Below, one piece after another: positions 17,150 to 54,770 of a stretch of DNA of 64,000 bases. The stretch's first letter is position 1, and each line of letters starts with the position of its first letter. The position numbers and the translations under genes are program-made. Below the pieces are notes generated by a model. That model searched no databases. It was not told where the DNA came from and was given only the letters and a program-made list of their open reading frames with translations. Origin of the DNA: an uncultured Chlamydiae bacterium (GTDB lineage Bacteria; Chlamydiota; Chlamydiia; Chlamydiales; Parachlamydiaceae); NCBI GenBank assembly GCA_963754655.1, contig CAVWGN010000001.1:2592001-2656000 (forward strand), written 5' to 3'.

Positions 17150-17651
17150 CTAGTACTCAACCACACTAGTTTTGTGTATTTAGACTCTTCAAAGCCCCGG
17201 GACTAGGGTGTTCATTTTGTGCAAAAAATGAGCTTATTTTTTACAATAATTGGCATAATTAAATTGAAGGTCGCATATTTATGCCGTCCTTTCAGGACTC
17301 GATGTCTTTTTGATAGAACCCAGGCCTCCGCTTCGCTGCGACCTGGGCTGTAACATAACGGCCCTTCAGGCCTTAACAAGAGATGTTTAAGTCCCTCTTC
17401 TATAGTCCCTAAATCATCTTTTTGTTAAGGCCTGAAGGGCCGTTATGTTACAGCCCAGGTCGCAGCGAAGCGGAGGCCTGGGTTCTATCAAAAAGACATC
17501 GAGTCCTGAAAGGACGGCATAAATATGCGACCTTCAATTTAATTATGCCAATTATTGTAAAAAATAAGCTCATTTTTTGCACAAAATGAACACCCTAGTC
17601 CCGGGGCTTTGAAGAGTCTAAATATACAAAACTAATGTGGTTGAGTACTAG
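17150..17651. mobile_element. Giant palindromic element, family A, copy 1
   Basis: 230-bp inverted arms 17150-17379 and 17422-17651 with 2 visible mismatches; CTAG at both ends. Confidence 0.95.
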
Positions 17652-17681
17652 GCAAAAACTCATATGGCGGAGTATTAGGAA

Positions 17682-18323
17682 TTACAAAATTTCCCACCCG
17701 TTTTGCAGACAAATTCGCTTTAAATAACCATCTGGCTCCACCCCTATCGCTTGTCCTGCCATTTGTAATATAGGTAAATCTAAATAGCTATCAGAATAAA
17801 CAGTAATTGCAGATGGAGGAAGCTGCATTCGATCGATTAACGCCTTGATATAGTTTGCTTTATCTTCTCCATCCATGACACTTGCAATAGCCGTTAGCTT
17901 TCCCATTTCATCTGTTTGATACACTGTCGCTTTCCAGTGAAACACATGAAGCCGCTCAGCAATTTCTTTTACCAAAAAATCAGGAGAACTTGATAAAATA
18001 AGAACCTCCTCTTTCTGATTTTGCGCATTTTCAAGCCTCTGAACAACAGGAGGATATAAGAAACCCCTTAAGGATTCATTTAAAAACATGTCAACATAGC
18101 GATTGATATCGGAAAGAGTGCGTCCTATAAAGATGCGTTTGAAAGTCTTGGCATGCAAATCTGCAATCGACATTCCCAGCCATTTGTGGCGCGCATAATC
18201 GATTAAGCAGCCTAGAAGGGTCCAGAATGAAAAAAACTTTTGGCAATAAAGGAAAGAGCCAAAGCGGAAGCTACTATTGACAGTGAGTAAAGTATGATCC
18301 AGATCAAAGATAGTTAAACCCAC
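17682..18323 (-). CDS. HAD-IB family hydrolase
   Basis: FDLDHTL, ILSSS, YSDSYLDLPIL motifs. Confidence 0.9.
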   Translation of the reverse strand: MGLTIFDLDHTLLTVNSSFRFGSFLYCQKFFSFWTLLGCLIDYARHKWLGMSIADLHAKTFKRIFIGRTLSDINRYVDMFLNESLRGFLYPPVVQRLENAQNQKEEVLILSSSPDFLVKEIAERLHVFHWKATVYQTDEMGKLTAIASVMDGEDKANYIKALIDRMQLPPSAITVYSDSYLDLPILQMAGQAIGVEPDGYLKRICLQNGWEIL

Positions 18324-18378
18324 AGAATCATATCCCTCAATGTATCAATAATTTAAGCATAAATTGAACTGATTAGCT

Positions 18379-52793: not shown

Positions 52794-53243
52794 ATGCTAA
52801 AAGTCATCCAAGATCATTCTACTTGGTATGCTCAAGGTCTCCATTTTGAATGTACAGGTTGCGGCCAATGCTGCACAGGTGCTCCCGGCTATATTTGGGT
52901 AAATGAAGAAGAAATTCAAAACATTGCTCAATTTCTCAACCTCGCAATAGAAGAATTTTCACGCCTTTACTTGCGACATGTCAAGGGACGTTTATCTTTG
53001 CTCGAACTCCCCAAAACTTATGATTGCATCTTCTTGAAAGATAAAAAATGTCAAATCTATCCTGTGCGTCCCACACAATGCCAGACCTTTCCTTGGTGGC
53101 CGCGAAATTTAAAAACAGAAAAAGACTGGCAAGAAGCCGCTCGCTTTTGCGAAGGCATTCACAAAGAAGCTCCCCTTGTTCCAGTTGAAACAATTGAAAA
53201 GCAGCGCCTCATTCAAGAGAAAATTTCTAGCTATGACACTTAA
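52794..53243 (+). CDS. YkgJ-family cysteine-cluster protein
   Basis: CTGCGQCC, CIFL...C.IY..RP.QC.TFP.W. Confidence 0.9.
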   Translation: MLKVIQDHSTWYAQGLHFECTGCGQCCTGAPGYIWVNEEEIQNIAQFLNLAIEEFSRLYLRHVKGRLSLLELPKTYDCIFLKDKKCQIYPVRPTQCQTFPWWPRNLKTEKDWQEAARFCEGIHKEAPLVPVETIEKQRLIQEKISSYDT

Positions 53244-54039
53244 TCCCTCTGGCTCTAAAGTCATCTTCATTGGTTCAGGAAAAGGAGGAGTTGGTAAATC
53301 CACCGTCGCAGTCAATTTAGCCATCGCTCTTGCTCAACAGGGATTAAAAGTGGGCCTTCTCGATGCTGATGTTTATGGTCCCTCTATCCCCATTATGTTA
53401 GGATTAAGACGTTTAAGCCCACGCATTGAGCGCTTGCCTTCGGGCGAGAATAAAATTGTTCCTCTGACTAAATTTGGCCTTCAAATTCTCTCTTTGGGAT
53501 TTTTCATTGAGGAAGCACGTTCTATTATTTGGAGAGGTCCTATGCTACATGGGACTTTGCAAAAAATGCTACAAGATGTCATGTGGGGTGAACTTGATCT
53601 GCTACTCGTTGATCTCCCACCTGGAACGGGTGATGTCCTTCTTTCACTCTCACAATTGCTGAAAGGAGAAGGTGCTTTGGTGGTATGCACACCTCAAGAG
53701 GTGGCCATGTTGGATGCTATCAAAGCCATTAATGCATTTGATCAACTGGATATTTCCTTATGGGGGATTGTGGAAAATATGGCTGGATTTCAAGCCCCAG
53801 AGACTCAACAGATCTATCACATCTTTGGTCAAGGCAAAGCACAGGAACTAGCTGCACGCTTTCACACTCAAGTCCTCATCAGTATTCCACTCATTCCTGA
53901 GATTCGCCAAGGAGGCGATGAAGGAATTCCAAGCGCTCTTTACTCCACTCTTCCTGCAGGCGATTTATTTCAAAATCTTGCCAAGATTGTCATACAGCGC
54001 TATCTGCAACCCATTTGTAATCCTTTCCACTCATTTTAA
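53233..54039 (+). CDS. Mrp/ApbC/NBP35-family ATPase
   Basis: SGKGGVGKST, DADVYGPS, WRGPM, DLPPGTGD, ENM. Confidence 0.93.
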   Translation: MTLNPSGSKVIFIGSGKGGVGKSTVAVNLAIALAQQGLKVGLLDADVYGPSIPIMLGLRRLSPRIERLPSGENKIVPLTKFGLQILSLGFFIEEARSIIWRGPMLHGTLQKMLQDVMWGELDLLLVDLPPGTGDVLLSLSQLLKGEGALVVCTPQEVAMLDAIKAINAFDQLDISLWGIVENMAGFQAPETQQIYHIFGQGKAQELAARFHTQVLISIPLIPEIRQGGDEGIPSALYSTLPAGDLFQNLAKIVIQRYLQPICNPFHSF

Positions 54040-54114
54040 AATTTGCAAAACTTTAGTGATCATGTCAATGCTTTTAGGGCTTAAATTTAGCGTTTTGCAC
54101 TATTCTTTTTCGTA

Positions 54115-54770
54115 GCCCACAGCTGGGACTTAACATTTAGTACTCCATTACATTAATTTTAGCCTATTGGGATTGCTTCAAAGCTCCCGCGGTTGGGATG
54201 AGATGATTCTCTTATAGTCCTTCAGACTACATGACGAGAGCTAATCTAACCCAGGGCGATGCCCTGGGCTATTTTTATTTGAAGCCCTTCAGGCTCTGAA
54301 CATTGGACATTTTTGGAAGACCTCCTTCTATAACAATTGTAGGGCCATGCCTATTAAATGGTACATCCTCCACAATCCTTTTTAGAGACGGTTAACAAAA
54401 AGATGTCCAATGTTGAGAGCCTGAAAGGCTTCAAATAAAAATAGCCCAGGGCTGGGACTTAACAAAGAACTGTTTTGAGCTTGATGTTTTTCGCGTCATT
54501 TTCGAGAAATATACCCCTAAAGCCTGTTACAGGCGTGGTGTTGTTAAATTGACGCGATGAATATCAAGCCCAAAAACAGTTCTTTGTTAAGTCCCGACCC
54601 TGGGTTAGATTAACTCTCTTCATGTAGTCTGAAGGACTACAAGAGAATCATGTCATCCCAACCGCGGGAGCTTTCAAGCAGTTCCAATGGGCAAAAACTA
54701 ATGTGGTTGAGTACTAGATGTTAAGTCCCGGCCCACAGCCAGCGCAAGCGCAGCTGTGGGTTCACGAAAA
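54115..54770. mobile_element. Nested palindrome complex: family C copy 2 (54138-54716) inside TGGGACTTAACA ends (54124-54730), with a second GGGACTTAACA element (54453-54596) in its right arm
   Basis: 9-bp direct repeat gcccacagc at 54115-54123 and 54731-54739; arms homologous to 42176-42583. Confidence 0.9.

What the first reader, a model, noticed from the sequence alone, without database searches (positions are those of the whole stretch)
17150..54717. One shared terminal cap on three different palindrome cores
Families A, B and C have different interiors but the same ~25-30-bp end, consensus CTAGTACTCAACCACATTAGTTTT(TGCCTATTGGG). It is seen at 17150/17651, 20955/21452, 31443/31948, 42594 and 54138/54717. 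This suggests a mobilising end that captures or brackets different hairpin cargoes, i.e. a modular non-autonomous element. The flanking TA/CTAG resembles IS630-type target preference (inference).
Basis: partly seen in the sequence, partly recalled or inferred. Interest (0 to 1): 0.8.

Follow-up and report, generated by a model that had tools for sequence, protein, structure and literature searches.

The report
Shared transposon ends around swappable hairpins
The shared cap is the end sequence of a family of IS630 jumping genes, and here it forms the outer shell of gene-less elements filled with unrelated hairpin repeats and likely moved as whole units, a layout that also occurs in filamentous cyanobacteria.

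Summary
The cap occurs 11 times in the window (0 in shuffles) and about 210 times genome-wide, mostly as inward-facing pairs, and cores A, B and C do not align. The cap is an IS630 terminal inverted repeat: complete IS630 elements in Rivularia are bounded by it (2 of 23 bases differ), and that transposase clade occurs in 23 of 401 genomes of this phylum, but not in this genome. The cores match the flanks of different small Y1 (RAYT-like) transposase genes and often occur without caps. A related genus carries only the 159-167-bp parent MITE. In Nostocales cyanobacteria the same cap brackets 48 core clusters, with lengths peaking near 108 and 130 bp, in tandem arrays. The cap is therefore probably a passive shell loaded by nested insertion and arm copying, not an active capture device. 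TA versus CTAG duplication is unresolved: autonomous copies favour 4 bp, local pairs do not. This scan noted the nesting and the Y1 link before, elsewhere in this genome; the source of the cap and the cyanobacterial parallel are added here. Verdict: new variant of known kinds (IS630 MITE plus REPIN-like cores).

The parts
17151..17650 (.). Capped A element (500 bp): cap + linker + second shell + Y1-flank hairpin arm, mirrored around a 42-nt spacer; CTAG on both sides
   Evidence: (I3)
17151..17173 (+). Left cap (IS630-type terminal inverted repeat)
17628..17650 (-). Right cap; 2 of 23 mismatches to the end of a complete Rivularia IS630
17655..17677 (-). Older, truncated cap directly beside the A element
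17277..17379 (+). Core A arm; about 89% identical over 107 bp to the downstream flank of the Y1 gene at G000:C1:395750-396268
20956..21452 (.). Capped B element (497 bp); its right cap supplies the TAG stop codon of the IPP-transferase (miaA-like) ORF 21450-22484(-); folds as one rod
21030..21378 (.). Core B; about 80% identical over 349 bp to the palindrome downstream of the Y1 gene at G000:C1:2429353-2429802
26728..27062 (.). Family D palindrome without caps (a separate family; resembles the flanks of the Y1 gene at G000:C1:2939279)
31444..31947 (.). Second capped A element (504 bp)
   Evidence: (I4)
32533..32555 (-). Lone cap; supplies the last codons and TAA stop of ORF 32546-33448(-)
42164..42596 (.). 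C element; left cap eroded, right cap 42574-42596; core matches the flanks of the Y1 genes at G000:C1:2542085 and 2544215
   Evidence: (I5)
42642..42983 (.). Family D palindrome without caps, next to the C element
   Evidence: (I6)
54138..54716 (.). Capped C element (579 bp) with an extra hairpin module F (54455-54597) in one arm; about 15 further bases outside the caps are also inverted
   Evidence: (I7)

Best explanation
The cap is the terminal inverted repeat of a clade of IS630-family transposons, and the capped elements are gene-less derivatives whose interior was likely filled by other repeats and which were probably moved as whole units by a transposase supplied in trans. Steps. (1) Shown: a parent miniature element of 159-167 bp (cap, linker, small hairpin, linker, cap) exists here and in a related genus. 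(2) Shown: cores A, B and C match the hairpin flanks of different Y1 transposase genes and also occur without caps. (3) Inferred: cores entered the parent because their own shells insert at a CCC(A/T/C)GGG(C/T)TA motif present in the linker, and copying between arms then made many elements symmetric and mixed modules between copies. (4) Inferred: because IS630-type transposases bind only the ends, any filled element with two caps was cut out and pasted into new CTAG sites. The cognate gene has since been lost from this genome or was missed by my searches. The cap is a passive shell, not a capture device.
For: Cap bounds complete IS630 elements: L182 and L187 are 99.85% identical over 1314 bp with different flanks, L192 is 87% and L174 about 82% identical, and the catalytic ORF scores 142 bits on NF033545, cut-off 100. 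The window cap differs from the L192 end at 2 of 23 bases. The clade is in 23 of 401 genomes of this phylum with related ends, best 4 of 23 mismatches. Parent element: 8 copies of 163-164 bp here and homologues in G032 (82% mean column identity), which has 59 cap-like sites (control 1), no REP-type cores among the sites printed and no match to one Y1 query. Cores match Y1 flanks. Families of near-identical capped composites at unrelated flanks: 8 of ~565 bp, 6 of ~503 bp, 5 of ~496 bp. 15 of 80 capped pairs have an empty-site paralogue, and the joined flanks match it without a gap. Shell landing motif. Arms differ less within than between elements (2.8 vs 6.3 and 8.1 vs 20.0 differences). Transposase binding confined to the inverted repeats and cut-and-paste movement are shown for ISY100 (PMC2170065, passages).
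Against: No cognate transposase in this genome: 42 clade proteins hit only the resident IS630 (about 29-35% identity), whose ends differ from the cap at 12 of 23 bases. None of 28 capped pairs with a non-CTAG side shows a 4-bp direct repeat, although autonomous copies often do, so left and right flanks may not come from one insertion event. A third of caps are unpaired. An arm's own partner is its nearest relative in only 5 of 12 and 4 of 22 cases. Empty sites prove that a capped element inserted, not what it carried at the time. No movement was observed.
Confidence: 0.6

Rival explanations
1. Only the small parent element transposed. The large capped composites arose later, in place, by insertion of core elements into resident parents and by gene conversion between copies that share caps and cores; the composites themselves never jumped.
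For: No cognate transposase here. Many elements are mosaics with different modules in the two arms. Cores are abundant without caps. Target duplications do not match within pairs (0 of 28).
Against: Composite families keep the same length and 93-99% identity from cap to cap at 5-8 unrelated sites. In Nostocales, the same capped core recurs in many copies and in tandem arrays while cognate IS630 copies are present in some of those genomes.
Confidence: 0.25
2. The resident, intact IS630 of this genome (G000:C1:954949-956013) moves the capped elements by recognising the shared outermost bases.
For: Its ends begin with the same seven bases as the cap and both copies sit in CTAG sites; its ORF is intact.
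Against: 12 of 23 end bases differ; it fell outside the cap-bearing clade in the tree, on a long branch; ISY100 transposase protects almost the whole 24-bp repeat (PMC2170065, passages).
Confidence: 0.08
3. The cap is the end of an IS701-family element, which would fit its TACT start and a 4-bp target duplication.
For: IS701 ends are given as YACT with 4-bp repeats (PMC2266710, passages). An ORF fragment that I judged by eye to be IS701-like lies at G000:C1:500731-501091.
Against: 0 of 25 IS701-profile loci from cap-rich cyanobacterial genomes were bounded by the cap, whereas IS630 loci were.
Confidence: 0.03
4. The palindromes are assembly artefacts, or a single diverged family.
For: Long palindromes can be produced by fold-back errors (own knowledge).
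Against: Arms carry mismatches and conserved asymmetric spacers; cores do not align; homologous capped elements occur in G032 and in cyanobacteria; contigs of a public run pile up on the repeats at summed depth 100-160 against 0-3 on neighbouring DNA (that run may be the source sample).
Confidence: 0.02

Closest known systems
IS630-derived bacterial MITEs: RUP of Streptococcus pneumoniae with IS630-Spn1; Correia/NEMIS; ERIC (PMC2229807 first third read; PMC3049150 and PMC3184786 passages)
   Same: Gene-less, terminal inverted repeats shared with an IS630 transposon, TA at the termini, intergenic, form long stems. RUP is 107 bp, Correia about 107 and 155 bp and ERIC about 127 bp, close to the 108/130/155-bp peaks of the capped elements in cyanobacteria.
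   Different: Those families have one core, or one core with a deletion form. Here one end type encloses many unrelated cores, up to several nested layers and 1.7 kb.
IS630-family elements ISMae29 (Microcystis) and ISAcma30 (Acaryochloris), as annotated in plasmid records
   Same: 58-60% identical to the catalytic ORF of the cap-bounded IS630; ends of the same pattern in CTAG sites.
   Different: Their ends differ from the cap at 7-9 of 23 bases; the Rivularia elements at 2-3 mismatches had no name in my calls.
REPINs with RAYT genes; TIRtrons; TnpA-Y1 subclass 1.2 (PMC3116915, 10.1101/119735, PMC3733652, PMC6006769; passages, plus the section on subclass 1.2)
   Same: Cores are inverted doublets of hairpin repeats that also flank small Y1 transposase genes; 5 of 6 such genes carry the subclass 1.2 Y---Q--HH signature.
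   Different: The genes score far below the RAYT cut-off (22-25 bits vs 80 for the four tested). REPINs are not described as carrying IS630 ends in the passages read. Subclass 1.2 is described as generally lacking terminal structures.
BOX elements of streptococci (PMC3049150, passages)
   Same: Modular MITE-like repeats with fixed outer modules, variable inner modules, 67-637 bp, clustering with and inserting into other repeats.
   Different: BOX inner modules are a few dedicated units repeated in tandem; here the inner parts are independent repeat families with their own transposase-like genes.

Membership tests
IS630-type MITE | Terminal inverted repeats in inward-facing pairs | tested here: met
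   68 inward pairs from 211 caps; 8 same-direction and 10 outward neighbours
IS630-type MITE | No transposase or long ORF inside | tested here: met
   Longest stop-free stretch 47-78 codons in the four fully capped window elements; long ORFs in larger elements belong to other inserted IS or host genes
IS630-type MITE | Ends shared with an autonomous IS630 | tested here: met
   2-3 of 23 mismatches to ends of complete IS630 elements in Rivularia
IS630-type MITE | Cognate transposase in the same genome (supporting feature; Nezha is also reported without one, PMC3184786 passage) | tested here: not met
   42 clade proteins hit only a distant resident IS630; G000 had no match at 1e-25
IS630-type MITE | TA target duplication | tested here: inconclusive
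   TA intact on both sides in 72 of 80 pairs; 0 of 28 non-CTAG pairs show a 4-bp repeat here, but 6 of 12 do in autonomous copies and 12 of 44 in cyanobacterial elements
IS630-type MITE | Multiple similar copies at unrelated sites, with empty sites | tested here: met
   Families of 8, 8, 6 and 5 copies; empty-site paralogues for 15 of 80 pairs
IS630-type MITE | Mobilisation in trans by the transposase | not testable with these tools
   Needs an excision or transposition assay
REPIN / RAYT system (cores only) | Inverted doublet of hairpin repeats around a spacer, many extragenic copies | tested here: met
   4 of 207 caps lie inside ORFs of 150 aa or more, which cover 75% of the chromosome
REPIN / RAYT system (cores only) | Same repeats flank a Y1 transposase gene | tested here: met
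   A, B, C and D each match the flanks of a different Y1 locus
REPIN / RAYT system (cores only) | Gene is a RAYT proper (NF047646) | tested here: not met
   22-25 bits vs cut-off 80 for four genes; they pass the IS200/IS605 model and carry the subclass 1.2 motif
REPIN / RAYT system (cores only) | GTAG tetranucleotide at the foot of the hairpin | not tested
   Not examined
IS701 family | IS701 transposase bounded by the cap | tested here: not met
   0 of 25 loci
Composite transposon of two MITE copies | A complete MITE (two ends) on each side of the cargo | tested here: not met
   Window elements have one cap per side

The most novel reading that the evidence does not exclude
One IS630 clade spawns a reusable shell that, in two phyla independently, becomes loaded with hairpin repeats of many unrelated Y1 transposase families and carries them to new sites. 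The shell holds its cargo to lengths about one or two DNA helical turns apart (108, 119, 130, ~153 bp), builds tandem arrays by inserting at its own ends, and duplicates 4 bp instead of the textbook TA. This would give REP-type repeats a second, double-strand route of spread that needs no Y1 enzyme.
Probability: 0.35. Interest if true: 0.7.

Novelty: new variant of a known kind. Interest (0 to 1): 0.47.

Why it matters
How REP and REPIN repeats spread is still open; the papers read describe the evidence for RAYT-driven movement as indirect (10.1101/119735, passage). If IS630 ends can carry REP-type hairpins, some of that spread needs no Y1 enzyme, and this can be tested because a cognate transposase with exactly these ends is now identified. 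The length peaks across unrelated cores would give a natural read-out of the spacing rule for IS630 end pairing. A 4-bp duplication in this clade would correct the end annotation of ISMae29-like elements. For this genome, multi-module repeat clusters cover about 120 kb (3.8%) and supply stop codons to at least two window genes. No benefit to the host is shown.

Tried and rejected
Looking for a transposase inside large capped elements: the ORFs found were IS1182/IS5-like and IS5 by profile, others IS481-, IS256- and IS110-like by eye, or host genes; all look like later insertions. Resident IS630 as partner: ends differ at 12 of 23 bases. IS701: rejected. Cap in close relatives: 0 of 60 genomes with the exact variant; 1 of 400 with a degenerate pattern. 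Viral contigs: 0 matches. Metagenome scan: 3 loci, one cyanobacterial-type and two copies of one unexplained single site. Rfam: only a tRNA in the window; one core-A hairpin scores 36.4 bits on Acido-Lenti-1, just under the cut-off of 37. My first reading, TA duplication proven by 0 of 21 pairs, was withdrawn after autonomous copies showed 4-bp repeats. mis-paired ends in arrays and is replaced; one search had the same fault and is replaced. A hand-picked length list (43 of 54 elements) is replaced. Sequencing runs: no RNA holder listed; no joint across either element in three soil runs with thin cover. Exact protein look-up: none of 3 found. Plasmid search with the small contig: no match. Elhai et al. 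2008 on small cyanobacterial repeats could not be read; it, the Nezha paper and the supplement of PMC2779907 (MaeMITE sequences) were not seen and may describe some of the cyanobacterial elements.
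Full report
Setting. The window lies at G000:C1:2592001-2656000 of a 3.16-Mb assembly with two contigs. I call the organism an environmental chlamydia on the basis of earlier scan notes, the genome sizes of its relatives and its gene content; no call of mine named it.

1. The observation. All cap sites listed are present. A degenerate cap pattern matches 11 times in the window and never in 100 shuffles. The genome has 187 sites with up to 4 mismatches to one variant (shuffle mean 0.33) and 239 to two variants. Among 211 caps with up to 3 mismatches, 136 form 68 inward-facing pairs within 2 kb, from 145 to 1690 bp long; 8 neighbouring pairs face the same way and 10 face outward, 7 of these sharing one TA. 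Only 4 of 207 caps lie inside ORFs of 150 aa or more, which cover 75% of the chromosome. Cores A, B, C and D do not align; the longest cross-family hit is 49 bp at 75%. The shared part is about 55 bp, not 25-30: cap plus linker align across A, C and the small parent element, and more loosely B. The C element at 42164-42596 has lost the outer part of its left cap.

2. What the cores are. The genome has nine matches to the Y1 transposase family. Six are full-length genes of a short type; five carry the Y---Q--HH motif given for TnpA-Y1 subclass 1.2 (PMC6006769, section 18 and passages). The four tested pass the IS200/IS605 model and fail the RAYT model. Core A is about 89% identical over 107 bp to the flank of the gene at C1:395750, core B about 80% over 349 bp to DNA downstream of the gene at 2429353, core C up to 84% over 70 bp to the flanks of the genes at 2542085 and 2544215, and D 81% over 54 bp to the flank of the gene at 2939279. 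A module map of the genome shows the cores bare, in one shell or in several, and with different modules in the two arms. Clusters without any cap: A 66 of 118, B 16 of 35, C 16 of 50, D 32 of 34 (clusters are split where unmodelled DNA exceeds 150 bp, so capped counts are low estimates). The second shell of A is preceded by a CCC(A/T/C)GGG-type motif in all 14 commonest contexts printed, and the cap's linker ends in that motif.

3. What the cap is. No cap-bounded transposase is in this genome. ORFs inside large capped elements are other insertion sequences or host genes. The resident IS630 shares only the outermost seven bases (12 of 23 differ), and 42 proteins of the right clade hit nothing else. 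Five such genomes hold 59-177 sites each and 0 for the reversed pattern. Of 29 IS630 loci from these genomes, four distinct loci are bounded by the cap at both ends and two more by a variant; none of 25 IS701 loci is. L182 and L187 are 99.85% identical over 1314 bp and have different flanks. They carry two ORFs in different frames, and the second scores 142 bits on the IS630 model. The window cap differs from the L192 end at 2 of 23 bases. Relatives of this transposase at 44-62% identity occur in 23 of 401 genomes of the window's phylum, with ends of the same pattern, the best at 4 mismatches. Chlamydial and cyanobacterial members are interleaved in a quick tree, so no direct transfer from cyanobacteria needs to be assumed; I did not test a donor. 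Named relatives are ISMae29 and ISAcma30 (58-60% identity, ends at 7-9 mismatches).

4. The parent element. Eight copies of a 163-164-bp element (cap, linker, small hairpin, linker, cap) occur here. One other genome of 400 sampled, G032 (same family, another genus), matches the cap pattern. It has 59 cap-like sites (control 1), holding a 159-167-bp homologue of the parent (82% mean column identity) or collapsed 71-91-bp forms. It gave no match to one Y1 query, and I saw no A, B or C cores in the sites printed. Eight of its 62 IS630 matches were checked and none has the cap as its end. This fits a parent that predates loading with cores; it rests on one genome.

5. The same layout in cyanobacteria. 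From the fetched loci I recovered 129 distinct capped elements under 600 bp; their interiors fall into 48 clusters. Lengths peak at 107-109 and 129-133 bp, with a smaller group at 152-158. 18 of 42 clusters between 90 and 200 bp have their modal length in 106-110 or 127-133, against 4.5 expected if uniform; these bins were chosen, and copies from related genomes are not independent. In an unselected 400-kb sample of G418 there were 47 ends (reversed control 1), 18 paired elements, 14 of them in those bins and three more at 119-120, and 12 head-to-head junctions sharing one TA. 29 of 125 cores match DNA within about 400 bp of a Y1 gene, at 5 of 22 Y1 loci; four of these carry an NP-type and one the subclass 1.2 motif. 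In the control, 2 cores hit 6 of 22 IS701 loci. Helical phasing as the cause of the length peaks is my inference.

6. Target duplication. In this genome 72 of 80 capped pairs have TA intact on both sides: 44 are CTAG on both sides, and none of the other 28 shows a 4-bp direct repeat (18 differ only in the outer base, 7 only in the inner). That alone suggests TA duplication, as published for IS630 and ISY100 (PMC2170065, passages). Against it, 6 of 12 non-CTAG autonomous copies show a 4-bp repeat; by eye four of the other six are mis-registered ends and two are real mismatches. In two pairs of near-identical copies (L207/L224, L215/L227) the inner base changes together with the opposite outer base. 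Cyanobacterial elements show 12 of 44, but 0 of 6 outside arrays. Here, outer variants (G 11, T 10, A 4) mirror inner variants (C 6, A 9, T 3), and the inner base varies in 18 of 182 caps against 19 of 364 at two other G/C positions (p = 0.047). I favour a 4-bp duplication blurred by arm copying, at about 65%.

7. Did composites move as units? Families at 93% identity or more, with unrelated flanks: 8 of about 565 bp, 6 of about 503 bp (including both window A elements), 5 of about 496 bp, and four pairs. 15 of 80 pairs have an empty-site paralogue. Arms differ less within than between elements (2.8 vs 6.3; 8.1 vs 20.0), but an arm's own partner is its nearest relative in only 5 of 12 and 4 of 22 cases. 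These results fit transposition of composites, but in-place loading plus gene conversion is not excluded, and the missing transposase keeps that rival at about 25%.

8. Comparison with what is known. IS630-derived MITEs (RUP, Correia, ERIC), modular BOX elements and nests of repeats are described (PMC2229807, first of three parts; PMC3049150, PMC3184786, PMC10969869, passages). REPINs, RAYTs and TIRtrons are described (PMC3116915, 10.1101/119735, PMC3733652, passages). Cyanobacterial MITEs are listed in PMC2779907 and PMC3542288 (passages; supplements not opened), without end sequences I could compare. Ten full-text searches listed no paper describing one IS630 end around many REP-type cores; the library lacks most subscription papers, and Elhai et al. 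2008 was not available. Earlier notes of this scan already describe the nesting, the Y1 link and arm copying in this genome, and the converse layout, one core with swappable ends, in other genomes; a look-up with the cap-bounded IS630 returned nothing.

9. Verdict. The feature is real. It works like an IS630 MITE whose interior is a stack of other repeats; the ends meet the IS630-MITE tests except for an in-genome transposase and a settled duplication, and the cores are REPIN-like but not RAYT-type by profile. New variant of a known kind, interest 0.47.

Noticed in passing
G000 genome-wide; example L045:2596-3437: An IS5-like element end is preceded by the last letters of a cap-type end in 19 of 52 cases, so cap ends look like a hotspot for a second insertion sequence.
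   Followed up: partly
window 21450-21452 and 32546-32555: Caps supply the stop codon of the miaA-like ORF and the last codons and stop of ORF 32546-33448; seven further caps end open frames of 300 or more codons.
   Followed up: partly
L017:1309-1363: The core A hairpin beside a Y1 gene scores 36.4 bits on Rfam Acido-Lenti-1 (cut-off 37), so that orphan RNA motif may be a DNA repeat.
   Followed up: partly
G032, L273, L293, L298: A linker like that of the cap element sits between ends resembling two other IS630 families of that genome, suggesting a conserved middle with exchangeable ends (by eye).
   Followed up: no
G000:C1:1766751-1768401 and 2208302-2209914: Capped stacks with up to about ten tandem or alternating copies of the core A arm.
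   Followed up: no
window 60723-63699: Two paralogous genes with DUF4116 repeats (75-bp period).
   Followed up: no
window 5303-8655: Two tandem paralogous ORFs (about 290 aa) and a third that shares short motifs with them by eye; no Pfam match for the two tested.
   Followed up: no
G000:C2:34012 and C1:8078: The same capped element with identical flanks lies on the chromosome and at the end of the 35-kb contig: a shared segment or an assembly overlap.
   Followed up: no
L047:1596, L048:2001: An exact single match to the second cap variant in two 54-55% GC metagenome contigs, with no partner within the locus.
   Followed up: no
window 8801-9184 and 47563-47629: Cap-less palindrome with an F-like module, and a remnant of core B after groEL.
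   Followed up: no
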